From positions 1 to 53,831 of IMG/VR virus record IMGVR_UViG_3300028735_000012: 53,831 nucleotides of DNA. One strand, given 5' to 3'. Below are positions 7,102-23,231 of the stretch, one piece after another. The notes under the pieces are model-generated. The model was given only the letters and a program-made list of their open reading frames with translations. It made no database searches and was not told where the DNA came from. The stretch comes from a virus. Its lineage: Duplodnaviria > Caudoviricetes. Within the stretch, counting starts at the first letter, position 1. Each line of letters starts with the position of its first letter. A program made the position numbers and the translations under genes.

Positions 7102-7459
7102 ACGACTACCCTAAACGCAGACCCACGGAGCAGGACATATGCCCTGCTCTGGTAATGCGGCGGCCCGGTGGGTAGCCCGGGCGCAGACAGTCACCGCATT
7201 CCGGACCCGGCCGGTTGCCGGGTAAGGAGGAAGAGCGATGGATTATTCGGCAGAAAACGCATTATTAAGGCCGCTGGCATTGGTCGTATCGGCAAAGATA
7301 TCGTCCTAGTTGGGTCTAAAAATGAGTACACGGGATATGCCTTCCATGTCGGGAAGCATCCGTTAATTCAGTATATTCAATCAATGGAAGTAACGTATGA
7401 CTGGTGACGAGGGGTGCCCGGATGTGTAGCCCGGGCACCCTATGTAAAGGAGAAGAAAA

Positions 7460-8313: not shown

Positions 8314-9231
8314 ATGAACCTAATCCTGCCCTTGCTCCAGGATGGATTGTCGTACCAGTTGGCGTTGGGTATCCAGGCTGACTGGTACGAAGATGCTAAC
8401 TTGCCCTTAGCAGCAATGGCCTTGCGTTCGCAGGGCCGCGTCGCTGCCAAGTGGGGCCACAATCTCGCTCTTACTCCCCAAGGGGTCGTAGCGGCTTGGG
8501 GCGATAATGGTTTCTTCCAATGCCACGTCCCTAGCGGCCTACTCGCTGTAGCCATTTCTGCTGGCTACAGCCACTCTTTAGCTATCACCCCGGATAGCCA
8601 GGTCGCAGCCTGGGGTGATAACGACTATAACTACAATATCCCCAATGGCTTGCGTGCTGTCGCAATCGCTGCGGGCTATAGCCACTCCCTAGCAATCACT
8701 CCCGAAGCCCAAGTAGTAGCTTGGGGCGATAACGGACATCAACAATGCGACGTGCCTAGCCGCTTGCGCGCCGTTGCCGTCGCTGCGGGCTATAGTCACT
8801 CCCTGGCTCTTACTTCTCAAGGCGAAGTGGTAGCCTGGGGCAGCAATCCGTATAGCCAATACGGCATGCCCCGCAACTTGCGGGCTGTTGCCGTCGCTGT
8901 GGGTTGTAGCCACAATCTCGCAATCACCCCAGAGGCCCAAGTGGTAGCCTGGGGTGATAATGAACACGACCAATGTGAAGTGCCCGACGGCCTGCGGGCT
9001 GTCGCTATCGCTGCGGGCTACAGTCACTCCCTCGCCCTCACCCCGGAGGGAGAAGTAGTAGCCTGGGGCGATAATCGACGCCAACAATGCGCCGTGCCCC
9101 GTGGCCTACGGGCTATCGCTATTGCTGCTGGCTGGCGGCATTCTCTGGCTCTTACGCCAAAAGGTAGAGTAGTAATTTGGGGCGACGAAGAGTATTGCCA
9201 GCATCCTATACCTTCATTTGGGAATGCGTGA
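8314..9231 (+). CDS. RCC1/BLIP-II repeat protein with TIGR02996-like N-terminus (paralog 1)
   Basis: Repeats AIAAGYSHSLAITPEGEVVAWGDN; N-terminal LGIQADWYED. Confidence 0.85.
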   Translation: MNLILPLLQDGLSYQLALGIQADWYEDANLPLAAMALRSQGRVAAKWGHNLALTPQGVVAAWGDNGFFQCHVPSGLLAVAISAGYSHSLAITPDSQVAAWGDNDYNYNIPNGLRAVAIAAGYSHSLAITPEAQVVAWGDNGHQQCDVPSRLRAVAVAAGYSHSLALTSQGEVVAWGSNPYSQYGMPRNLRAVAVAVGCSHNLAITPEAQVVAWGDNEHDQCEVPDGLRAVAIAAGYSHSLALTPEGEVVAWGDNRRQQCAVPRGLRAIAIAAGWRHSLALTPKGRVVIWGDEEYCQHPIPSFGNA

Positions 9232-10001
9232 TGCACTTGATTCTACCGCTACTCCAGGATGGCCTCTCGTACCAGACGGCACTGGCCATCCAAGCCGACT
9301 GGTACGACGATAACGACCTGCCTCTAGCCGCAGCGGCCTTGCGGTCGCAGGGGCGCATCGCTACCATGTGGTCACACTCTCTCGCCCTTACTCCAGAGGG
9401 CGAAGTCGTCGCCTGGGGGAATAATAACAATAACCAGTGCGACGTACCTAGCCGCTTGCGCGCCGTCGCTATCGCCGCAGGTGGCCACCACTCCTTGGCT
9501 CTCACTCGCGAGGGGCGGGTAGCAGCTTGGGGCTCCGACTACCAACGCCAATGTCAGGTGCCCGACGGCCTGCGCGCTGTCGCTATCGCTGCTGGTGCCC
9601 GCCATTCTCTGGCTCTGACTCGCGAGGGCCGCGTAGTAGCCTGGGGATGGGGCCACGAACACCAATGTCGGGTGCCCGACGGCCTGCGCGTCGCCGCAAT
9701 CGCCACAAAATATAGCAACTGCCTCGCCATCACCCCAAAGGGGCGGGTGGTGATCTGGAGAAACAATAACCGGTGCCAAGTCGTCCCCAGCCTAAGGGCT
9801 GTCGCCATCGCAGCAGGGTATAACCACACACTCGCTCTTACCCCGGAAGGCAGGGTAGTGGTCTGGGGCGACAATACATACCGTCAGCGCCAGGTGCCCG
9901 ACGGCCTGCGAGCCGTCGCTATCGCCGCAGGTTGGCGACACTCCTCAGCACTCACCCCAGAAGGACACGTCATTATTTGGGGACCAGGTCTTACAACATG
10001 A
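9231..10001 (+). CDS. RCC1 repeat protein with TIGR02996-like N-terminus (paralog 2)
   Basis: Same N-terminus (LAIQADWYDD) and repeats. Confidence 0.85.
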   Translation: MHLILPLLQDGLSYQTALAIQADWYDDNDLPLAAAALRSQGRIATMWSHSLALTPEGEVVAWGNNNNNQCDVPSRLRAVAIAAGGHHSLALTREGRVAAWGSDYQRQCQVPDGLRAVAIAAGARHSLALTREGRVVAWGWGHEHQCRVPDGLRVAAIATKYSNCLAITPKGRVVIWRNNNRCQVVPSLRAVAIAAGYNHTLALTPEGRVVVWGDNTYRQRQVPDGLRAVAIAAGWRHSSALTPEGHVIIWGPGLTT

Positions 10002-10033
10002 CGTTACATCAACATGAGAGGCATAATGTAATA

Positions 10034-10957
10034 ATGCAATTAGTTTTAGATATTTTAAAAGATGATATTCCCTATCATTTAGCCTTAGCCATTCAGGCTG
10101 ATTGGTATGAAGATGAGGGCTATCCTCTAGCTGCTGCCGCTCTGCGTTTGCAAGGACGCATTGTAGCAGGGTGGGACTACTCGCTAGGTCTTACCGACAG
10201 GCGTTATGTGGTCAGCTGGAGATACAGCGACCAGCAATACTGCAACGTGCCGATTGGTATGCGAGCTATTGCCGTCGCTGCCGGCAGTCGCCACTTTTTG
10301 GCTTTGACTCGCAGGGGACGGGTTGTCGCCTGGAGCTGTAATGATTTGCGGCGATGCGATGTTTTGGCAGGGTTGCGAGCTATTGCCATCGCTGCAGGAT
10401 GGCGGCATTCTCTTGCTTTAACAGCCAGCAACGAAGTGGTCGCTTGGGGCGACAACAAATTCAGGCAATGTGAAGTGCCTGCCGGGCTTCGTGCCGTCGC
10501 TATCACTTCGGGCTGGGGGCACTCTCTTGCTCTAACCAAAGAGGGCCAAGTAGTAGCTTGGGGCTACAATGACTATCGCCAATGCAAGGTGCCGGCTGGC
10601 TTGCGGGCTGTAGCTATTGCTGCTGGCGGCTACCATTCGTTGGCCTTGACGCCAAAAGGCGAGGTCGTTGCCTGGGGCGACAATGAATTTCGGCAATGCT
10701 GTGTACCTGCTGGTCTGCGTGCTATTGCTATTGCCGCTTCTAGGTGTTACTCTCTAGCCCTCACCGCTGAGGGAAATGTGGTGGCCTGGGGCGACAATGG
10801 CTATTACCAGTGTCGAGTCCCTGAAGGTTTGCGTGCCGTGGCTATTAGTGCGGGCTGGTATCACTCTCTAGCCCTAACCCTAACCCTCAGGGGCGAAATA
10901 ATAGCATGGGGTTCTTATGGCCGCCGCAATGCACCCATACGGCTGCACGAAACATAG
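10034..10957 (+). CDS. RCC1 repeat protein with TIGR02996-like N-terminus (paralog 3)
   Basis: LAIQADWYED plus ~7 RCC1 repeats. Confidence 0.85.
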   Translation: MQLVLDILKDDIPYHLALAIQADWYEDEGYPLAAAALRLQGRIVAGWDYSLGLTDRRYVVSWRYSDQQYCNVPIGMRAIAVAAGSRHFLALTRRGRVVAWSCNDLRRCDVLAGLRAIAIAAGWRHSLALTASNEVVAWGDNKFRQCEVPAGLRAVAITSGWGHSLALTKEGQVVAWGYNDYRQCKVPAGLRAVAIAAGGYHSLALTPKGEVVAWGDNEFRQCCVPAGLRAIAIAASRCYSLALTAEGNVVAWGDNGYYQCRVPEGLRAVAISAGWYHSLALTLTLRGEIIAWGSYGRRNAPIRLHET

Positions 10958-11295: not shown

Positions 11296-11544
11296 TTGCT
11301 CATGAAAAAAATTAAGCGATGTATTGATTGCGGTCGCCCATACAGCACTCCTCGCAAGTGGATTTGCGGGCAGTGCAAATCCGAGAGGCGGCGACTGCGT
11401 GAGCTGCACGGATATGACGGCGATCCAAGATACACAGCCATCAAGGCCGCTCGTGTTGCGGCCTACGCTCGCAGAGTAGAACGGGGAGTTCCGCTCTTTG
11501 AACCACCACTAACGCGAAAGGAGATCTATGAGTCTGCTGAGTAA
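11296..11544 (+). CDS. Zn-finger hypothetical protein
   Basis: CIDC...CGQC; C-terminal YARRVERGVPLF. Confidence 0.55.
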   Translation: MLMKKIKRCIDCGRPYSTPRKWICGQCKSERRRLRELHGYDGDPRYTAIKAARVAAYARRVERGVPLFEPPLTRKEIYESAE

Positions 11545-13345
11545 AGTACAGCGTGGCCGTGTCGCAAGACCGCCTCGATTACTGATTTACGGTATTCCGG
11601 GTATTGGAAAGGCCCAGCCACTGACGGCAAAGGTTCTTACCCCCACAGGTTTTGTGGAGTTGGGGCAACTCCGCGTCGGCGATCTGGTCATCGGTTCCAA
11701 CGGACGTCCTTGCTCGGTCCTGGGCGTTTATCCCCAGGGAACCAAGGAAGTCTTTCGCGTCACGTTCCGCGACGGCTCGTCCACGGAGTGTTGCGATGAT
11801 CACCTGTGGTTTACCACTACAAAAGGCGAGCGAGATCACGGTTTGCGCGGTGCGGTGAGGGCATTGAGGGACATTCGAAAATCGCTTCGGTACGGGACGC
11901 ATTTCAACCATGCCGTGCCCCGCGTCCGGCCAGTGGAGTTCGAGACCAAGTCGCTGCCCGTCGATCCGTGGCTACTCGGGATGTACCTGGGGGATGGACA
12001 CACCGGCACCAGCACCATCATCACCAATCCCGAAGCCGACATCCAGGATCGCGTTCGTGCAGCGGTGGCGGTCGATGGCGACCGTGTCCGCCTCTACGAC
12101 CGGATGCACATGCGGCTGGTCTCAGCCGACCGAACGGGGACGGAGTTCAAAGCCGCACTCGTCCAGCTGGGCTTAGCCGACGCAATGGCCGAGAGTAAGT
12201 TTGTGCCGCCGATATACCTGCTCGGTTCGGTGTCGCAGCGATTGGAACTGTTGCGTGGCTTAATCGACAGCGACGGGTACGTCGTGTACCCCGGTTCAGT
12301 GGAGTATTGCACCGTCAGTCCTCAGTTGGCCCGAGACTTTTGCTTCCTCGTCCGGTCTCTGGGCGGATCGGCACGAGTGACAACGAGACGCGGTTCGTAC
12401 ACTAAGAATGGCGTGAGGCATAATTGCCAACTCGTCTACCGAATTTACGCATCCTTCCCGCCGGAGATCACGCCAGTTTCGTCCGAGAAGCATCTAGCGA
12501 AGTGGGGCGTGGCAGAGTGGCGAATCCTTCACACCATTCGGGACGTAGAGTACGTTGGGCGCAAAGAGTGTCAGTGCATCCGCATCGACGCACTCGATTC
12601 GCTCTATGTCACAGATGATTTTATTTTGACTCACAACAGCACCATTGGATCACAAGCCCCCAGTCCGATTTTTATTCCAACCGAAGACGGCCTTGACATG
12701 ATCGACGCGGCCAAGTTTCCGCTAGCCACCAGTTTTGACGACGTGCTAGCTGCGCTCACGGAACTCCGCCTACAGCCGCACGACTTCGAGACGGTTGTCA
12801 TCGATTCACTAGATTGGCTGGAGCGGCTGATCTGGGACCGCGTATGCCAAGAGTTCAACGTGAAGAACATTGAGAAGGCGGACGGGGGGTATGCTCGGGG
12901 CTACATGCACGCCCTAACGTATTGGCGTGAGGTCATTGACCTGCTCGACCTACTGCGTAATCAACGAGAGATGGTCGTGCTGCTGATCGCTCACGCCAAG
13001 GTCGAAAAGTTTGAGGATCCCGAAGCTCCGCCCTATGATCGCTACTCGCCGCGATTGCACAAGCACGCGGCCTCGCTTGTAACCGAGTGGTGCGATGCGG
13101 TGCTGTTTGCCACGCGGAAGTTTCGCACGGCTAGCGAGGATGCCGGCTTTGGTCGCAAGCGGACCATTGCCCATGCCATTGGCAAGGATGGTGGGGATCG
13201 GATCCTTCGTACTGTCGGCGGACCGAGTTGTGTCGCCAAGAACCGATACTGCCTGACCGAGGAGCTGCCTTTGTCCTGGGCAGCATTCATCTCTGCTTTA
13301 TCTGCTACTGCTGGTCATACGAAAAAAGGGGGTGGTGATGATTAA
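11528..13345 (+). CDS. AAA_24/Sak4-like phage ATPase (recombination) interrupted by an intein
   Basis: Walker A GIPGIGK|S split by the intein; Walker B VVIDS; LIAH, AKNR motifs; followed by DUF669. Confidence 0.85.
   Translation: MSLLSKVQRGRVARPPRLLIYGIPGIGKAQPLTAKVLTPTGFVELGQLRVGDLVIGSNGRPCSVLGVYPQGTKEVFRVTFRDGSSTECCDDHLWFTTTKGERDHGLRGAVRALRDIRKSLRYGTHFNHAVPRVRPVEFETKSLPVDPWLLGMYLGDGHTGTSTIITNPEADIQDRVRAAVAVDGDRVRLYDRMHMRLVSADRTGTEFKAALVQLGLADAMAESKFVPPIYLLGSVSQRLELLRGLIDSDGYVVYPGSVEYCTVSPQLARDFCFLVRSLGGSARVTTRRGSYTKNGVRHNCQLVYRIYASFPPEITPVSSEKHLAKWGVAEWRILHTIRDVEYVGRKECQCIRIDALDSLYVTDDFILTHNSTIGSQAPSPIFIPTEDGLDMIDAAKFPLATSFDDVLAALTELRLQPHDFETVVIDSLDWLERLIWDRVCQEFNVKNIEKADGGYARGYMHALTYWREVIDLLDLLRNQREMVVLLIAHAKVEKFEDPEAPPYDRYSPRLHKHAASLVTEWCDAVLFATRKFRTASEDAGFGRKRTIAHAIGKDGGDRILRTVGGPSCVAKNRYCLTEELPLSWAAFISALSATAGHTKKGGGDD
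11612..12637 (+). mobile_element. Intein (342 aa) with LAGLIDADG homing endonuclease, Ala1 start, class-3-like
   Basis: Starts AQPLTAKV, ends ILTHN/S; LLGMYLGDG and LLRGLIDSDG; block B DHLW, block F ECQCI, block G THN. Confidence 0.9.
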
Positions 13346-13661
13346 GGTGAGTATTCGTGCCGAGAATTGGGCTGTCTCGGCTACGGTACATGACGAAAAG
13401 GTTTATAACCCGTTTGCTGGTCTCAACAGTGACGCGGTCGTAGCCCAAGCTATTGAAGTCGCTTTAGAGCATGCTGTATACAGTTTGTGCGACCCTTTAT
13501 ACGTTTTGGCTCGCGTCGTGGTGAACATCGATGAAAGAGAAAACGGCTCTCTGCGAGCAGCTGCCCTGAAATTTTGGGAAGCCGCTGAAGAGTATATCCT
13601 AGCTGCTGAACAAAAACGCCTAACCAACCACCCTAACCTAAAGGAGACCGAGCATGGCTGA
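13332..13661 (+). CDS. Hypothetical protein
   Basis: ORF overlapping both neighbours. Confidence 0.5.
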   Translation: MVMIKVSIRAENWAVSATVHDEKVYNPFAGLNSDAVVAQAIEVALEHAVYSLCDPLYVLARVVVNIDERENGSLRAAALKFWEAAEEYILAAEQKRLTNHPNLKETEHG

Positions 13662-14124
13662 TTTGCGTGGATTTGACGCCAACCAAGTGGAACAATCGGG
13701 CGGCTTTGAACCGATCCCGGCGGGCAAGTATGTGGCCGTCATCACCGAATCGGAAATGAAGCCGAACAAGGCGGGCACGGGCAGCTATCTGCAACTAACC
13801 TTTGAGATCATCGAGGGCGACTACAAGGGCCGCTATCTGTGGTCGCGGCTCAATCTTGACAACCCGAACTCGACGGCAGTGCAGATCGCCAGAATGGAGT
13901 TGGCGGCCATCTGCCGAGCTGTCGGTGTGCTGACGCCCAAGGATTCGGTCGAGTTGCACAACCTGCCGCTGGTGGTTCATGTCCGCTGCAAAAAGCGGCA
14001 GGACACCGGCGAGATCAGCAATGAGATCAAAGGCTACTCGTCTAGGACCGCTCTGACCGAGGACGCCAAGACAGCCACCCCGTCGGCTACCGGCAAACCA
14101 ACTACGCCACCGTGGAAGCGTTAA
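13654..14124 (+). CDS. DUF669 single-stranded DNA-binding-like protein
   Basis: FEPIPAGKYVAVITESEMK...YLQLTFEII...NEIKGY...PPWKR; follows Sak4-like ATPase. Confidence 0.85.
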   Translation: MADLRGFDANQVEQSGGFEPIPAGKYVAVITESEMKPNKAGTGSYLQLTFEIIEGDYKGRYLWSRLNLDNPNSTAVQIARMELAAICRAVGVLTPKDSVELHNLPLVVHVRCKKRQDTGEISNEIKGYSSRTALTEDAKTATPSATGKPTTPPWKR

Positions 14125-14166
14125 TGAAAACGTTAATGAGAGTTAACTACAAAAGGAGAACATGAC

Positions 14167-14799
14167 ATGGCGACAAAAGAAAAGGCTACGTCAGCTACGG
14201 CTATTGGCCCCGAAGTGAGCAACGGTGCTGCCGAGACAATTGCGTTGTCTCTGCCGTATCGGGTCGAGGTGGTCATTCGGGGGGAGGCCGACATCCTGTT
14301 CCATCGCTGGAACTGCGAAGCGGTCGAGGCCAAGGCCAAGGCCGCCAAGGGGTCAGCGGCCAAGAAGCAGGACGACGTAGAGTCCTACGTCTATCGCAAC
14401 GACAAGAGCGAACTATGCCTGCCGGGCGAATACTTGCGGCAGGCAGTGATCGGAGCCGCCAAGTTTCGCCAGGATCCACGCAGTCCTCGCAAGTCGGCCC
14501 AAGACCTGGTCAAAGCGGCGGTGGTCAATCTGACGCCGCTAGCTAGTCTAGGCGTCACTGAGTGGGACTACGAACATCGCTGCCGAGTGCAAGTGCAGCG
14601 TAACGGCGTGACGCGGGTGAGGCCAGCGATGCGGGCTGGCTGGCAGGCAACATTCGTGTTTCTGGTCAACTTGCCTGAGTATGTGTCGCGGGAGATGCTA
14701 CTGGGGCTGTTGACGGATGCTGGCCGATTGATCGGCGTAGGCGACTTCCGTCCGACGTATGGGCGGTTCCAAGTCGCATCGTTTAAGGTATGCGACTAA
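14167..14799 (+). CDS. Stand-alone RAMP/Cas7-like protein (putative effector of the adjacent pentamer array)
   Basis: N-terminal VEVVIRGEADILFH strand, LCLPGEYLRQAVIGAA helix motif, C-terminal Gly-rich loop AGRLIGVGDFRPTYGRFQV as in RAMP proteins; AAGGAG RBS. Confidence 0.7.
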   Translation: MATKEKATSATAIGPEVSNGAAETIALSLPYRVEVVIRGEADILFHRWNCEAVEAKAKAAKGSAAKKQDDVESYVYRNDKSELCLPGEYLRQAVIGAAKFRQDPRSPRKSAQDLVKAAVVNLTPLASLGVTEWDYEHRCRVQVQRNGVTRVRPAMRAGWQATFVFLVNLPEYVSREMLLGLLTDAGRLIGVGDFRPTYGRFQVASFKVCD

Positions 14800-14803
14800 T
14801 AGT

Positions 14804-16197
14804 GGCTTGACGGGGCCAAGCGTGGCCAGGCTAGGCGGGGCGGGGCTTGGTGCGGCGCGGCCAGGTTGGACCGGGCTGGGTCCGGCCCGGCTTGGTTCGG
14901 CATGGTATGGCAGGGCAAGGCGTGGCGCGGCTACGCTCTGCGGGCATGGATGCTCGCCCTATCCCCATCGACCAGCAGATGTGCTGGTTTGTGGGAATGG
15001 GGCAAGGTTTTGCTGGGTCCGGCGCGGCGTGGCGGGGCCAGGTGCGGCTCGGTCGGACTTGGCGCGGCGTGGCGGGGTGAGGCCCGGTGGGGCCCGGTGG
15101 GGCGAGGAGGGGCTGGGTCCGGCGTGGCACGGCGTGGCGGGGCGTGGCTCGGCGTGGCGCGGTCGGGCTTGGCGTGGCGTGGCGGAGCCAGGTTTGGCGT
15201 GGCGGGGCAGGGCCGGGCACGGCAGGGCACGGCCGGGTGGGGCGAGGCTCGGCCGGGCTTGGCAGGGTATGGCAGGGCACGGCCCGGCATAACTAAGCTA
15301 AGCCACCTTGACCATGCCCGGTCAAGGTAAGGCGAGATAAGGATAGCTCGCTTTACCTCGACCGGGCGAGGCCGGACCTGGTGGGGCTGGGTCGGGCGAG
15401 GCCCGGCACGGCAGGGCATGGCGTGGCCGGGTCGGGCCTGGTGCGGCGCGGCGCGGCGAGGCAGGGCCGGGCTATTTTTATCGCCCCCGGTCAAGGTAAG
15501 GTGAGCTGTCTTCGTCTCACTTTACCTCGACCGGGCAGGGCGTGGCCAGGCTAGACGGGGCGAGGCCTGGCTGGGCGCGGTCTGGCTGGGCGTGATGGTG
15601 TTCGGCAGAGCTGGATGTGGCTAGGCATGGTATGGCTAGGTTGGGCACGGCATGGCGCGATATGGGCTGGCTCGGCGGAGCCACCTTGACCATACCCGGT
15701 CGAGGTAAGGCGAGATAAGGATAGCTCGCCTTACCTCGACTGGGCGCGGCGGGGCAGGGCGTGGCCAGGCTAGACGGGGCAAGGCCAGGCATGGCGTGGC
15801 GTGGTCCGGTGAGGTCCGACATGGCCGGGTGGGGCTTGGCGTGTCGCGGTGAGGCTTGGCAAGGTGAGGCTTGGCCGGGCTTGGTGTGGCTAGGCGTGGC
15901 CCGGCTACTTTTACCGCCCCAGGTCGAAGTAAGGCGAGACAAAGATAGCTCGCTTTACTTCGGCCTGGTCCGGCGGGGTCGGGCTTGGCGGGCCTGGGCG
16001 GGGCGAGGTCCGGCGAGGTCCGGGCGGAGCATGGCAGGGCCGGGCCGGGCGCGGTTCGGCGCGGCAGGGTGTGGCTTGGCGTGGCGAGGCCAGGCATGGT
16101 TTGGCGAGGTCAGGCGCGGCATGGCGAGGCTAGGCTTGGCCTGGCTTGGCGGGGCTGGGCCAGGTCCGGCAAGGCTGGTTATGGCTTGGCTTGGTTT
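14804..16197 (+). repeat. Array of ~215 GGY-NN pentamers in six blocks (14804-14933, 15001-15290, 15365-15474, 15534-15683, 15743-15907, 15967-16197); putative guide-RNA array
   Basis: Strict 5-nt period, e.g. ggcgc ggcgt ggcgg ggcca ggtgc ggctc; positions 1-3 nearly invariant GGC/GGT, positions 4-5 take all 16 dinucleotides. Confidence 0.95.
15316..15968 (+). ncRNA. Four related ~50-nt stem-loop separators (15316-15367, 15486-15535, 15695-15744, 15919-15968) between pentamer blocks
   Basis: ~20-bp stems CC(C/A)GGTC(A/G)A(G/A)GTAAGG(C/T)GAG...CTC(G/A)C(T/C)TTAC(C/T)TCG..; compensatory changes between copies. Confidence 0.8.
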
Positions 16198-16201
16198 TTC
16201 G

Positions 16202-16230
16202 CGTGCCTGGTTCGATGTGAACCAGGCACG
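16202..16230 (+). terminator. Terminal hairpin closing the pentamer array
   Basis: cgtgcctggttc-gatgt-gaaccaggcacg, perfect 12-bp stem. Confidence 0.55.
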
Positions 16231-16257
16231 TCTTACCTGCACAATCAAGGATGCTTC

Positions 16258-16644
16258 ATGGAAGTTGAGCTGCCATTTCCGCCGAGCATAAACCATCTTT
16301 GGCGAAGAATCGGCCATCGCACGCTAATGAGCCGAGAGGAGCGACGATTTCGGCGTCAGGTCGTAGCAATCCTAGCAGCAATGCAAATTCGTCTGCTCGT
16401 CGGCAATCTGGCCGTGCAAGTGGCAGTGCATCCGCCGGATCACCAACGACGCGATCTCGACAATGTGCTGAAGGCCCTGCTCGATGCACTCGAACATGGC
16501 GGAGCGTACACGGATGATGCCCAAATCGTAGAAATTCATATTCAAAAATGTGCAACGGCAGCACCGGCGGGCAAGGTGCGTGTCGTGCTGCAACAAGTTG
16601 GGAGTAATCCAGATGAAAATACAGGGTTGGATAGCAACAAATAA
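16258..16644 (+). CDS. rusA: RusA-family Holliday junction resolvase
   Basis: ELPFPPSINHLWR; RRDLDNVLKALLDAL; DDAQI; true ATG at 16258. Confidence 0.9.
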   Translation: MEVELPFPPSINHLWRRIGHRTLMSREERRFRRQVVAILAAMQIRLLVGNLAVQVAVHPPDHQRRDLDNVLKALLDALEHGGAYTDDAQIVEIHIQKCATAAPAGKVRVVLQQVGSNPDENTGLDSNK

Positions 16645-16825
16645 ACAAGGCTTAATCTTGGGTAGCTTTCATGAGAATCAAGAGGGGGCTATTGCTGCTG
16701 CTCGACAGATACTGCGCCTGACAGGCGGCCCGTCACTTGTGGCTGGCTTTCGCCTAATTCAGGCTACGCTGACCGTTCAAGACATGGATGACACCGCCCT
16801 GGGCCAAGAAGCGGAGGCAAAGTAA
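16613..16825 (+). CDS. Hypothetical protein
   Basis: GGGAG RBS, TAATG coupling to the helicase. Confidence 0.5.
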   Translation: MKIQGWIATNKQGLILGSFHENQEGAIAAARQILRLTGGPSLVAGFRLIQATLTVQDMDDTALGQEAEAK

Positions 16826-18630
16826 TGGAGCTGCGACCGTACCAGCAGGCAGCGGTCGAAGCGGTGTATGACCATCTACGGACGCGGGACGACAATCCGT
16901 GCGTGGTCATTCCGACTGCCGGTGGCAAGACACCGGTCATGGCAACCATCTGCAAAGATGCAGTCGGGCAATGGGGTGGCCGCGTCCTGATCTTAGCCCA
17001 TGTCAAAGAGCTGCTAGAGCAGACAGCAGACAAGCTGCGGGCCATTTGCCCAGAGGTCAGCTACGGTGTCTATTCGGCGGGCCTCAAGCGGCGCGATACA
17101 GACTATCCCGTCATCGTAGCTGGCATTCAGTCGGTCTATCAGCGGGCCTGTGAATTTGACCCGTTTGACTTGGTGATCGTGGATGAAGCGCATCTTATCC
17201 CGCCGGACGGAGATGGCATGTACCAGCAATTCTTGGCCGAGGCCCGGGTCGTCAATCCCAACCTGCGGGTCATTGGCTTCACGGCGACGCCATACAGGCT
17301 AAAGTCGGGGCCTATCTGCACGCCGGACGGCATCCTCAACCACATTTGCTACGAAGTTGGGGTGCGGGAGTTGATTGTCCAGGGCTACTTGTGCCCGCTT
17401 GTCACCAAAGCGGGCAAGGCACGGGCCGACACTAGCGGCCTGCACGTCCGGGCGGGTGAATTCGTAGCCGATGAAGTTGAAGAGCTGATGGACGACAATT
17501 GGCTCGTTGAAGCCGCTTGTGCTGAGATTGTCGAACATACCCATGATCGCAAGGCGGTTCTGATCTTTGCTTCGGGCATACGGCACGGCCAGCACGTCGT
17601 GCAAGTGCTGAAAGAACGGCACGGCATCGAGTGCGGCTTTGTCAGCGGGGAATCGTCAGACGACGAACGAAGCCGATTGATTTCTCGGTTCCGCGATCAG
17701 GAATGGATACGCCAACTCCAAATTGACTTTGGTGCAACCGCCGCCCCCAAGCCGCTGAAGTATCTAGCCAACGTCAATGTGTTGACGACCGGCTTCGATG
17801 CGCCAAATGTCGATTGTGTGGTCTTGCTTCGGCCCACGATGTCGCCGGGCCTCTACTACCAGATGGTTGGTCGAGGATTTCGACTGCATCCAGCCAAGCA
17901 AAACTGCCTGGTCCTTGACTTTGGCGGCAACGTGTTGCGACATGGACCGGTAGATCTGATCAAGGTCAAAACTGCCAGTCGCGGCGACACCAAAAGCAAA
18001 GAATCACCGGCCAAGGAATGCCCGGAATGCCAGTCCATCATTGCTGCCGGCTATGCACGCTGTCCCAATTGTGGCTACGAGTTTCCGTCGTCTGAGCGCA
18101 GCAAGCACGAAGCAAAGGCTAGCAGTGTCGGCATATTGTCGGGCCAGGTGACAATTGAAAAGTATACTGTGCGAGACGTGTCTTACAGCGTCCATAAGAA
18201 GCGTGGTTCGCCGGAGGACGCCCCAAGGTCAATGCGGGTCAATTACCGGGTCGGCTGGCACGAATACAAGTCAGAGTGGATCTGCTTTGAGCATACAGGC
18301 TTTGCGCGGCAAAAAGCGGTCGCTTGGTGGAGCAAGCGGTCGCATGAACCGGTGCCTGCAACAGCTGCCGAAGCCGTCGCGATTGCTAATGCTGGCGGGC
18401 TGGCCTCGACGCTTTCGATCACCGTGCGATCGGTAAGCGGCGAGGAGTACGACCAAATTATTGACTATGAACTCGGACCAATTCCAGAGTTTCTCGGTCT
18501 GGATGAGGTCCACGATACTAGCAACACCGGACTGCTAGACGACGACGCAATCAGTTTTCCGTACGGCTACAACGCGGCTGATGCCACAGAAAGCGTGGCT
18601 GATACCACAGAAGATGATATTCCGTGGTAA
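16825..18630 (+). CDS. SF2 DEAH helicase (RadD/YejH-like) with C-terminal Zn finger
   Basis: LRPYQ, PTAGGKT, DEAH, TATP, QMVGRGFR, CPEC...CPNC. Confidence 0.92.
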   Translation: MELRPYQQAAVEAVYDHLRTRDDNPCVVIPTAGGKTPVMATICKDAVGQWGGRVLILAHVKELLEQTADKLRAICPEVSYGVYSAGLKRRDTDYPVIVAGIQSVYQRACEFDPFDLVIVDEAHLIPPDGDGMYQQFLAEARVVNPNLRVIGFTATPYRLKSGPICTPDGILNHICYEVGVRELIVQGYLCPLVTKAGKARADTSGLHVRAGEFVADEVEELMDDNWLVEAACAEIVEHTHDRKAVLIFASGIRHGQHVVQVLKERHGIECGFVSGESSDDERSRLISRFRDQEWIRQLQIDFGATAAPKPLKYLANVNVLTTGFDAPNVDCVVLLRPTMSPGLYYQMVGRGFRLHPAKQNCLVLDFGGNVLRHGPVDLIKVKTASRGDTKSKESPAKECPECQSIIAAGYARCPNCGYEFPSSERSKHEAKASSVGILSGQVTIEKYTVRDVSYSVHKKRGSPEDAPRSMRVNYRVGWHEYKSEWICFEHTGFARQKAVAWWSKRSHEPVPATAAEAVAIANAGGLASTLSITVRSVSGEEYDQIIDYELGPIPEFLGLDEVHDTSNTGLLDDDAISFPYGYNAADATESVADTTEDDIPW

Positions 18631-22277: not shown

Positions 22278-23231
22278 ATGCCCGCTGAAACGCAGCCACT
22301 GCTTCCTTTCTCCGACTGGACCGCTTTGAAAGCGGACAACTGGTCGGCCAAAGCAAATACGCCACCTACGAGAAAATCTCGCCCTTCGACTGATTCTGCT
22401 TGTTCTAGCGAGCCGACACAACAGCTCATCACCTTCACAAGCGGTTCCCGTCTCACCGAAGAGCAGCAGCGTCTAGTTGAGGCCAACCTTGGCCTAGTCT
22501 ACAATCTTGTCGGGAAATTTAGGTTTCCGCAGGCGTATCACGACGATGCCGTCAGTGATGCCATGTTGGCATTGGTCCATGCGGCACGCGGGTTCAAGGC
22601 AGACAGAATTGGCAAATTTTCTGCATTTGCGTATCTTTGCATTGAAAGAAGGCTCAAATCTTTGTATAATCGCATTTTGAAGTTAGAGTCGCGGCGTGCT
22701 TCTGACGTGACGCAACGCGACGAGTGGGACGACGAGTGGACTGAGAACGGCCAAGCTCTGCATGAGCCAGCGATCAACGATGCGCCTTACGTTCCGGTGT
22801 TGGACGATCCCCAAGGAACCCGACGGCCTATGTCGAAGCAATGCCGAGCATTTGGCGACCTAGCCCCTGTGGTGTGGTCGCTACGCTCAAGGCATCGCCG
22901 CGTGCTTTGTGCGGCTTATGTGCGTAGCACTCGCGTGCAGGCATCGCTCACCGAATTAGCTTGCACGCTACGTTGCACGCGGCAAGAAGCTCGTGAGCGA
23001 CTGCAAGAGGCTCTTGCGGCTCTGCGTCGCCGACTGCTACGCGAATGGGGTGACACGCCACCTCGGCCTTGGAGCGTAGCTGACGATGACGCCCTGCGGC
23101 CTCTGCTTGCCCTCACAGGTATGCGTCGCCAACTGGTCCTCATGCTGCTTGCCCAACGCTGGCAGCGATCCTACCGCGAAGTCAAAGCGCGGGCAAACTA
23201 CCTGCAACAGGAGGCTGACAATGGGACGTAA
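22278..23231 (+). CDS. Sigma70-family (region 2) sigma-factor-like protein
   Basis: LVEANLGLVYNLV...DAVSDAMLALVHAARGF...KFSAFAYLCI; region-4-like HTH later. Confidence 0.7.
   Translation: MPAETQPLLPFSDWTALKADNWSAKANTPPTRKSRPSTDSACSSEPTQQLITFTSGSRLTEEQQRLVEANLGLVYNLVGKFRFPQAYHDDAVSDAMLALVHAARGFKADRIGKFSAFAYLCIERRLKSLYNRILKLESRRASDVTQRDEWDDEWTENGQALHEPAINDAPYVPVLDDPQGTRRPMSKQCRAFGDLAPVVWSLRSRHRRVLCAAYVRSTRVQASLTELACTLRCTRQEARERLQEALAALRRRLLREWGDTPPRPWSVADDDALRPLLALTGMRRQLVLMLLAQRWQRSYREVKARANYLQQEADNGT

What the first reader, a model, noticed from the sequence alone, without database searches (positions are those of the whole stretch)
15316..15968. Array separators are covarying RNA stem-loops
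Four ~50-nt copies keep a ~20-bp stem despite substitutions: GGCGAG/CTCGC becomes GGTGAG/CTCAC (copy 2), and CCCGG/CCGGG becomes CCAGG/CCTGG and GAGGTAA/TTACCTC becomes GAAGTAA/TTACTTC (copy 4). Loops vary and some remaining mismatches are G-U compatible on the + strand. An unrelated hairpin pair (14940-15003) separates blocks 1 and 2 and a perfect 12-bp hairpin (16202-16230) ends the array. Compensatory changes indicate selection on structure, for example processing sites (RNase III-like) or caps that release individual guide RNAs.
Basis: partly seen in the sequence, partly recalled or inferred. Interest (0 to 1): 0.72.

Follow-up and report, generated by a model that had tools for sequence, protein, structure and literature searches.

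The report
Hairpin caps in a phage VIPR array
The four stem-loops are real, structure-conserved separators inside the guide-RNA array of a phage VIPR system, a CRISPR-related RNA-guided DNA silencer first described in 2026, so this is a new example of a known kind with an unusual hairpin-type guide tail.

Summary
Four ~50-nt hairpins (15317-15366, 15486-15535, 15695-15744, 15919-15968) fold at -39 to -42 kcal/mol (z -7 to -9).

With nine more copies from two related contigs (11 distinct sequences), 95% of cells pair. 7 of 21 pairs change on both sides, and 0 of 500 shuffles reach the covariation score.

The array they punctuate (14800-16231) consists of phased YNNGG pentamers. It starts directly after a 210-aa gene (14167-14799) whose family profile matches the solved "SUSP1 Vipr protein" (E 1.2e-17) and whose model has a Cas7/Csm3 RAMP fold. 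This is therefore a VIPR locus (bioRxiv 10.64898/2026.04.26.720920).

The hairpins are most likely the structured 3' tails or caps of the vrRNA tracts. No RNA data exist, so processing, RNase III-like or otherwise, is inferred.

Three caveats apply:
- Hairpin-bounded tracts hold 22-61 pentamers, against 9-16 in published guides.
- Sister arrays lack these hairpins.
- Two copies are flipped, which shows DNA-level turnover.

This scan has found VIPR loci before on other DNA, including hairpin punctuation. The kind is known; the tail is a modest variant.

The parts
14167..14799 (+). vipr gene (210 aa), a minimal Cas7-like RAMP
   Evidence: The family profile A3 hits PDB 36pp_D 'SUSP1 Vipr protein' at E 1.2e-17. 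tblastn hits Escherichia phage phiSUSP1. The AF2 model has pLDDT 93.7, and its top Foldseek hits are Csm3/Cas7 chains at E 2.6e-7.
14800..14942 (+). vrRNA tract 1: 28 in-phase YNNGG pentamers (23 end in GG)
   Evidence: Phase parse. The tract starts directly after the vipr stop codon.
14942..15003 (+). 3' structure of tract 1: a small hairpin (14942-14955) plus a long imperfect hairpin (14956-15003)
   Evidence: -39.8 kcal/mol, z -5.6. The element is conserved in L090. Its two stem differences are both G.U/U.G-compatible on the + strand only.
15004..15287 (+). vrRNA tract 2: about 56 in-phase pentamers
   Evidence: 61 units were parsed up to 15316. The last 5 are the non-repeat linker.
15288..15316 (+). 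A-type linker. It contains ACCTTGACC, a third copy of the arm sequence.
   Evidence: (I6).
15317..15366 (+). separator hairpin 1 (20 bp, loop ATAAGGATAG)
15367..15471 (+). vrRNA tract 3: 21 in-phase pentamers, followed by a T-rich B-type linker (15472-15485)
15486..15535 (+). separator hairpin 2 (20 bp). Its loop CTGTCTTCGT resembles the reverse complement of the loops of the other copies.
15536..15680 (+). vrRNA tract 4: 29 in-phase pentamers, followed by an A-type linker (15681-15694)
15695..15744 (+). separator hairpin 3 (20 bp, loop ATAAGGATAG)
   Evidence: The listed strain-variant differences at 15716, 15718 and 15720 lie in its loop.
15745..15904 (+). vrRNA tract 5: 32 in-phase pentamers, followed by a T-rich B-type linker (15905-15918)
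15919..15968 (+). separator hairpin 4 (20 bp, two compensatory pairs, two G.U)
15969..16197 (+). vrRNA tract 6: 10 + 34 pentamers with one phase shift near 16020
16201..16231 (+). terminal 13-bp hairpin closing the array, preceded by TTTTT and with no T-run after it
   Evidence: The window differs from L022/L093 by two double-sided changes, G-C/A-T and T-A/C-G. It is not terminator-like.
16258..16644 (+). RusA resolvase gene, the next gene after the array. It belongs to the conserved replication module, and a vap role is not established.

Best explanation
The region 14167-16231 is a VIPR locus of a phage, probably one of Phycisphaerae (Planctomycetota). It has a vipr gene followed on the same strand by six tracts of YNNGG pentamers, which are vrRNA guide tracts. 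Each tract ends in a structured element.

The four covarying 20-bp stem-loops are the 3' tail or cap modules of tracts 2-5. The double hairpin caps tract 1 and the 13-bp hairpin caps tract 6.

Inferred mechanism:
1. The array is transcribed with the replication operon.
2. Vipr protomers coat the single-stranded pentamer tract, one per pentamer as in SUSP1.
3. The hairpin locks four repeat-like units into a duplex that cannot be coated. It therefore bounds the filament and shields the 3' end.
4. As a two-turn duplex it is also a natural substrate for a host double-strand-specific RNase, which would separate neighbouring units.

Shown: the hairpins, their covariation, the phased tracts, Vipr homology and fold, and the co-orientation of tracts with vipr across relatives. 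Inferred: transcription, Vipr loading, and any cleavage and its enzyme.
For: - Vipr identity: profile hit to the solved SUSP1 Vipr at E 1.2e-17 over 174 profile positions, including the C-terminal G.GD.RP..GRF glycine loop. AF2 pLDDT is 93.7 and the top Foldseek hits are Csm3/Cas7.
- Tracts: 217 parsed pentamers, of which 188 end in GG and 214 start with a pyrimidine. Each block sits in one phase, apart from one shift in block 6.
- Association: 70 of 80 viral loci encoding a relative have GG period-5 tracts on the gene's strand next to the gene, and 0 of 80 have them on the other strand.
- Architecture: all 6 tracts are followed by a structure, whereas tract 1 has none before it. This matches the published 'repeat tract then structured 3' tail'.
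- Covariation: 13 copies, 11 distinct, 95.2% paired. 7 of 21 pairs have double-sided changes (15 cells). The score is 0.318 against 0.221 for shuffles, 0 of 500 shuffles reach it, and slid controls score at most 0.126.
- Strand: 21 G.U against 8 A.C cells on the + strand. Both stem differences in the double hairpin are wobble-compatible on the + strand only.
- Strain variants keep hairpins 3 and 4 while tract content is deleted or replaced.
Against: - No RNA run holds the locus, so transcription, ends and cleavage are unseen.
- Both strands fold about equally.
- The + strand is G- and T-rich (GC skew +0.28, AT skew -0.15). That composition alone favours G.T over A.C mispairs.
- The copies are paralogues and close orthologues, so shuffle controls overstate significance.
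- Hairpin 2 has a flipped loop, and L093 copy 3 is the exact reverse complement of L022 copy 1. This shows DNA-level inversion and no strict need for loop orientation.
- The family is confined to 3 contigs: 195 loci were searched with the model and IMG/VR with a motif.
- Sister arrays with Vipr about 81% identical run 141 (L027) or 175 (L038) pentamers without separators, or use a different ~75-nt element.
- Three different 3' structures in one array argue against a Vipr-specific tail such as the SUSP1 pseudoknot.
- Tracts of 22-61 units exceed the published 9-16.
Confidence: 0.7

Rival explanations
1. The hairpins belong to the following tract, as a 5' handle, not to the preceding one. Cleavage would occur in the A/U-rich single-stranded linker upstream of each hairpin, giving RNAs of the form hairpin + tract.
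For: The 3' arm of every hairpin (CCGGG, CTGGG or CCTGG) runs in phase straight into the next tract with no linker. A 14-29-nt non-repeat, A/T-rich linker separates the hairpin from the preceding tract.
Against: Tract 1 has no structure before it, and the terminal hairpin has no tract after it, yet that hairpin is preceded by the same T-rich linker type as copies 2 and 4. In L022 and L093 the hairpins are embedded in phase on both sides without linkers. Published vrRNAs carry the structure at the 3' end.
Confidence: 0.12
2. The stem-loops are DNA-level palindromes with no RNA role. Arm complementarity would be kept by intrastrand template switching or recombination between arms, and they would matter at most as homology for array rearrangement.
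For: There is a loop flip in copy 2 and a whole-hairpin flip between L022 and L093. Both strands fold equally. Related arrays do without them. Arrays differ between strains by deletions and replacements.
Against: The excess of + strand wobble (21 G.U against 8 A.C) is not what arm homogenisation predicts, because that process would give perfect palindromes. The hairpins always sit at tract 3' ends. Two unrelated structures in the same array also preserve pairing through + strand wobble or double changes. The strain deletion joint 15085/15380 lies in tracts, not in hairpins.
Confidence: 0.1
3. The hairpins are transcription terminators or attenuators that tune read-through into RusA and the helicase gene.
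For: They are strong GC-rich stems inside an operon, between vipr and rusA.
Against: No T-run follows any of them. The scan found 0 terminator-like sites on the + strand in 13500-17000. Four or five tandem terminators inside one array would silence the downstream tracts and the replication genes.
Confidence: 0.03

Closest known systems
VIPR systems (Vipr + vrRNA): type II of Escherichia phage SUSP1 and the Pseudomonas fulva prophage. Sources: bioRxiv 10.64898/2026.04.26.720920 (Results, Discussion, three Methods sections and legends read); 10.64898/2026.04.26.720927 and 10.64898/2026.10.15.759431 (passages read).
   Same: Shared features are a small RAMP protein homologous to SUSP1 Vipr, tracts of GGY/NN pentamers on the gene's strand, a structured element at the 3' end of each tract, several tracts in a tandem array downstream of the gene, and phage-borne location.
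   Different: The tail here is a plain 20-21-bp hairpin plus linker, not the ~40-nt pseudoknot. One array holds three different tail structures. Hairpin-bounded tracts hold 22-61 pentamers, not 9-16. The locus sits inside a replication/recombination module, and no vap gene is recognisable. No target was found. Expression is unknown.
Ribozyme-interspersed and staggered VIPR arrays (same preprint, legends of figs S18 and S19; the figures themselves were not visible)
   Same: These are arrays of many tracts with either a defined inter-tract element or none, and sister loci of this clade show both patterns.
   Different: The separators here are simple hairpins with no match to any Rfam ribozyme at the gathering score. 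Cleavage would need a trans-acting enzyme.
RNase III processing stem-loops between cistrons, such as the phage T7 early mRNA sites and rRNA operon stems (recalled knowledge, not from a call)
   Same: These are stems of about two helical turns placed between functional units of one long transcript.
   Different: No cleavage evidence exists here. Internal-loop or bulge features of known sites were not examined. The host RNase III is uncharacterised.
CRISPR repeat hairpins cut by Cas6 (recalled knowledge)
   Same: A repeated stem-loop separates variable guide segments and stays as a 3' handle, and the partner protein is a RAMP.
   Different: CRISPR repeat stems are short, whereas these are 20 bp. 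Nothing suggests that Vipr is a nuclease.

Membership tests
VIPR system | Vipr protein: a minimal RAMP (RRM core, glycine-rich loop, thumb) homologous to published Viprs | tested here: met
   The profile of 65 family members hits PDB 36pp_D 'SUSP1 Vipr protein' at E 1.2e-17, with the G.GD.RP..GRF loop and the R.RP thumb motif aligned. AF2 pLDDT is 93.7. Foldseek's top hits are Csm3/Cas7 at E 2.6e-7, TM about 0.5.
VIPR system | Non-coding tracts of at least 4 tandem YNNGG (GGY/NN) pentamers next to vipr, on its strand | tested here: met
   There are 217 phased pentamers in six blocks, 188 ending in GG and 214 starting with Y. 70 of 80 related viral loci have such tracts on the gene's strand and 0 of 80 on the other strand.
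VIPR system | A conserved structured 3' tail after each tract | tested here: met
   Each of the six tracts is followed by a stable structure. The hairpin family covaries. The structure differs from the SUSP1 pseudoknot, and three tail types coexist.
VIPR system | vrRNA length of 9-16 pentamers (type II exemplars) | tested here: not met
   Hairpin-bounded tracts hold 28, 61, 22, 29, 33 and 44 parsed units. Either the guides are longer or each tract holds several.
VIPR system | An accessory vap gene in the operon | tested here: inconclusive
   RusA and a helicase follow the array, but together with Sak4 and DUF669 they form a replication module kept in 52-59 of 160 loci. No gene could be assigned as vap.
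VIPR system | Natural targets that match the NN dinucleotides with a 1-nt skip | tested here: inconclusive
   A script search of 0.95 Mb (window plus 148 loci, arrays masked) gave 9 hits at 17 or more of 20 positions for the 1-nt skip. Controls gave 6, 13, 8 and 15, and no 1-nt-skip hit reached 18. The database was far too small.
VIPR system | vrRNAs are expressed and bound by Vipr | not testable with these tools
   No RNA run is listed for this DNA.
Self-cleaving ribozyme separators (hammerhead, twister) | A match to a ribozyme covariance model | tested here: not met
   No Rfam family reaches its gathering score in 14600-16400. Only sub-threshold miRNA-precursor look-alikes, which are generic long hairpins, appear.
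Intrinsic terminator | A GC-rich stem followed by a T-run | tested here: not met
   There are 0 terminator-like sites on the + strand in 13500-17000.
RNase III substrate | A duplex of about two helical turns, and cleavage by RNase III | tested here: inconclusive
   Stem length of 20-21 bp is met. Cleavage cannot be tested here.

The most novel reading that the evidence does not exclude
The 20-21-bp hairpins define a third maturation route for VIPR arrays, beside ribozyme-interspersed and staggered arrays. In this route a host double-strand RNase cuts the array at interchangeable, orientation-independent duplex caps, and flipped copies persist. The caps bound Vipr filaments of 22-61 protomers, several times longer than the 12-protomer SUSP1 complex, or multi-guide units.
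Probability: 0.25. Interest if true: 0.5.

Novelty: new member of a known kind. Interest (0 to 1): 0.3.

Why it matters
VIPR is a newly described RNA-guided DNA-recognition system, and how its arrays are cut into working guides is largely open outside the SUSP1 clade. This locus, and the large family behind it (6807 relatives at E <= 0.001), show three things.

- The tail is not one fixed structure. Within one Vipr clade it can be a plain two-turn hairpin, a ~75-nt junction element, or nothing at all.
- Tracts can be far longer than the studied guides.
- The tail may therefore be a generic boundary or stability device rather than a Vipr-specific handle, at least in this clade. That bears on how VIPR guides could be engineered.

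It does not change the picture of what VIPR is.

Tried and rejected
- Rfam at gathering and at E-value thresholds: nothing meaningful on the hairpins.
- Dispersed REP- or MITE-like element: rejected. The hairpin occurs only inside the array in this record.
- More copies for covariation. The covariance model was searched over 81 + 80 + 35 sources, and a degenerate motif was scanned over IMG/VR. Copies were found only on the L022 contig (held also as L098 and L205) and on L093. Weak hits in L090 (E 0.0088) and L168 (E 0.11) were not used.
- RNA evidence: no RNA holder is listed for the stretch. The four DNA contig runs that were laid gave strain variants only.
A collection-wide target search was not run and remains open.
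- Before the VIPR preprint was found I considered a replication origin or R-loop element, a G-quadruplex array, a Chi-like array and a protein sponge for the pentamer array. I dropped these once the flanking gene proved to be a Vipr homologue.
- The ~75-nt separators of sister arrays were checked against Rfam for hammerhead or twister. There was no hit, and by eye the junctions do not fit the hammerhead core.
- An ORF-based neighbour survey was too noisy inside arrays. It was replaced by tblastn synteny.

Full report
**Observation**

The window is an IMG/VR virus record of 53,831 bases, estimated about 70% complete. Reading 14400-16700 shows a 1.4-kb G-rich stretch of five-base repeats. It is interrupted by four near-identical inverted repeats at 15317-15366, 15486-15535, 15695-15744 and 15919-15968.

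Each inverted repeat folds as a 20-bp stem with a 10-nt loop. On the + strand the energies are -39.2 to -42.5 kcal/mol, z -7.1 to -9.1, and 0 of 200 shuffles fold as well. The - strand folds about as well.

78 of 80 cells pair. 7 of 500 column shuffles do as well, and structures slid by 1-3 columns drop to 26-49% pairing with no double changes.

The hairpin pair at 14942-15003 and the 13-bp terminal hairpin at 16201-16231 are also real.

**What the array is**

A phase-aware parse puts each inter-hairpin block into a single five-base register, apart from one shift in the last block. The blocks hold 28, 61, 22, 29, 33 and 10+34 units. Of the 217 units, 188 end in GG and 214 begin with a pyrimidine, which gives the unit YNNGG.

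The array begins directly after the stop codon of a 210-aa ORF at 14167-14799. That ORF has no Pfam hit and matches only PHROG 4652 of unknown function.

A full-text search for pentanucleotide repeats in phages returned the preprint that describes VIPR systems. These consist of a small RAMP protein (Vipr) and vrRNAs made of alternating GGY/NN pentamers followed by a structured 3' tail. The NN dinucleotides read double-stranded DNA with a 1-nt skip (bioRxiv 10.64898/2026.04.26.720920; Results, Discussion, three Methods sections and figure legends read).

I then tested whether the ORF is a Vipr.
- A profile of 65 diverse family members hits exactly one meaningful PDB sequence, 36pp_D 'SUSP1 Vipr protein'. 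The hit has E 1.2e-17 over profile positions 33-206, including the C-terminal glycine-rich loop.
- tblastn of the protein finds phiSUSP1 and its Felixounavirus relatives.
- The AlphaFold2 model is confident (pLDDT 93.7, pTM 0.84).
- Its best Foldseek matches are all Cas7-family subunits: Csm3 and type VII Cas7, from E 2.6e-7, TM about 0.5.

The ORF is a Vipr homologue, and the locus meets the defining features of a VIPR system.

**Relatives**

The protein family is large: 6807 proteins at E <= 0.001 in the 90% clusters and 1127 representatives at 50%.
- Of 80 viral loci encoding a relative, 70 carry GG period-5 tracts on the gene's strand beside the gene, and none carries them on the other strand.
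- The closest cellular copies, at 74-82% identity, are mostly in Phycisphaerales/Phycisphaerae MAGs. A planctomycete host is therefore likely.
- In loci whose Vipr is at least about 71% identical, the order Sak4-like, DUF669, Vipr, array, RusA, helicase, primase-polymerase is kept. Among 160 loci, Sak4 is found in 57, DUF669 in 59, RusA in 54 and the helicase in 52; this count includes a few duplicate contigs.
- RusA and the helicase therefore look like the phage's replication genes rather than VIPR accessory genes. I could not assign a vap.

**The hairpins in relatives**

A covariance model of the four copies found the family in only three contigs: the window, the contig held as L022 (also as L098 and L205) with five copies, and L093 with four copies. 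The searches covered 81, 80 and 35 sources. An IMG/VR motif scan added nothing.

The 13 copies, 11 of them distinct, give the following on a 21-pair structure:
- 95.2% of cells pair.
- 7 pairs have changes on both sides, in 15 cells.
- The covariation score is 0.318, against a shuffled mean of 0.221, and 0 of 500 shuffles reach it.
- Slid controls score at most 0.126.

On the + strand, 21 non-Watson-Crick cells are G.U and 8 are A.C, which would be G.U on the - strand.

The other two structures behave alike. Between the window and L090, both stem differences in the double hairpin are wobble-compatible on the + strand only. Between the window and L022/L093, the terminal hairpin differs by two double-sided changes.

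This favours selection on a + strand RNA structure. Three reservations apply:
- The copies are related to one another.
- The + strand is G- and T-rich, which alone favours G.T mispairs.
- DNA-level events are visible. The loop of window copy 2 resembles the reverse complement of the other loops, and L093 copy 3 is the exact reverse complement of L022 copy 1 in the same context.

**Placement**

All six tracts are followed by a structure, and tract 1 has none before it. The terminal hairpin has no tract after it, yet it is preceded by the same T-rich linker type as copies 2 and 4.

This fits the published 'tract then 3' tail' order. [quoted passage not shown] The third preprint treats the shared tail as what makes an RNA competent for Vipr complex formation (passages of 10.64898/2026.10.15.759431).

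The alternative is that the hairpin is a 5' handle of the next tract. That reading is suggested by the in-phase continuity of the 3' arm with the following tract and by the A/T-rich linker upstream. I give it about 0.12.

- Tracts hold 22-61 units, against 9-16 in the published guides.
- L027, with Vipr about 81% identical, carries 141 pentamers in one phase without a separator. L038 carries 175.
- L024, L025, L032, L033 and L035 use a different ~75-nt two-hairpin junction element: 12 distinct copies with covarying stems and no Rfam hit.

The separator is therefore labile and dispensable within one Vipr clade. One array here even holds three kinds. This argues for a generic role, as a boundary, a 3' protection or a duplex cleavage site, rather than a Vipr-specific handle.

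The 5' arm of the hairpin is itself built of repeat-like units such as CCTGG, CGAGG and TAAGG. The stem therefore hides about four units from the protein.

**Strain variation**

Contigs from three other runs, from two other studies of hot-spring metagenomes, carry the same locus with tract content deleted or replaced. One form skips 15085 to 15380. Another has 117 other letters in place of 15755-15833. Hairpins 3 and 4 and the flanks stay aligned. The three listed differences inside hairpin 3 all lie in its loop, but only 8 of that piece's 14 differences were listed.

**Function of the tracts**

The database was too small for this to count as evidence either way. No RNA run holds the locus.

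**Comparison and novelty**

The locus is a member of the VIPR kind. The separators correspond to the vrRNA tail, but as a plain two-turn hairpin.

The text I could read names pseudoknot tails, staggered arrays, hammerhead-interspersed arrays and single vrRNAs. It does not name hairpin-separated arrays. The supplementary figures and data were not visible and may cover this clade.

Earlier reports of this scan had already found VIPR loci on other DNA. One of them reported hairpin punctuation with several guides per hairpin-bounded stretch.

I rate this a new member of a known kind, of modest interest. The most novel surviving reading is a host-RNase-dependent, orientation-independent hairpin route of array maturation that bounds very long filaments.

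Noticed in passing
window 7116-7180 (+); L025 1425-1501 (-); L038 1573-1639 (+): There is a type-P5 twister ribozyme match in the window (39.1 bits, gathering score 37.6) and another in a related phage locus. A type II hammerhead (51.9 bits) lies in a third locus. All are outside the VIPR arrays.
   Followed up: no
L024 4699-4788 and 4881-4970; L025 4858-4947; L032 1050-1603; L033 2480-2819; L035 2934-3999: Sister VIPR arrays use a different ~75-nt separator. It has conserved junction sequences and two hairpins whose stems change by compensatory substitutions (12 distinct copies). No Rfam family matches, and by eye it does not fit the hammerhead core. It could be another tail type or an undescribed ribozyme.
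   Followed up: partly
L027 4640-5351; L038 4916-5792: These loci hold uninterrupted single-phase tracts of 141 and 175 YNNGG pentamers with no separator, far longer than any published vrRNA.
   Followed up: partly
L001 (Mycobacterium phage Brocalys) 2950-3190 and gene 45; L002 (Gordonia phage UmaThurman) 2985-3300 and genes 39 and 40: Both actinophages carry GGC/NN pentamer arrays beside a Vipr homologue. Brocalys gp45 scores hhalign probability 98% (E 1.2e-13) and UmaThurman gp39 scores 97%. UmaThurman 'gene 40, hypothetical protein' is annotated on top of the array.
   Followed up: partly
OR003939.1 (Phage DSL-LC04) 22438-23043: A 61%-identical Vipr homologue is annotated there as 'helix-turn-helix transcriptional regulator'.
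   Followed up: no
window 15305-15313 and 15683-15691: The linkers before hairpins 1 and 3 contain ACCTTGACC, a third copy of the arm sequence. It could pair with the hairpin's 5' arm (GGTCAAGGT or GGTCGAGGT) as an alternative structure. The linkers before hairpins 2 and 4 are T-rich instead, so the array alternates two linker types.
   Followed up: no
window 14821-14840, 15541-15560, 15760-15779: Tracts 1, 4 and 5 share nearly the same run of units near their start: CGTGG CCAGG CTAGG/CTAGA CGGGG. This suggests duplicated guide segments or a conserved tract leader.
   Followed up: no
window 11528-13345: The Sak4-like AAA_24 gene carries LAGLIDADG / homing-endonuclease domains in its middle (residues ~237-309), so it probably holds an intein.
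   Followed up: no
window 8314-10957: Three consecutive genes encode RCC1-repeat beta-propeller proteins, with weak phage tail-protein matches.
   Followed up: no
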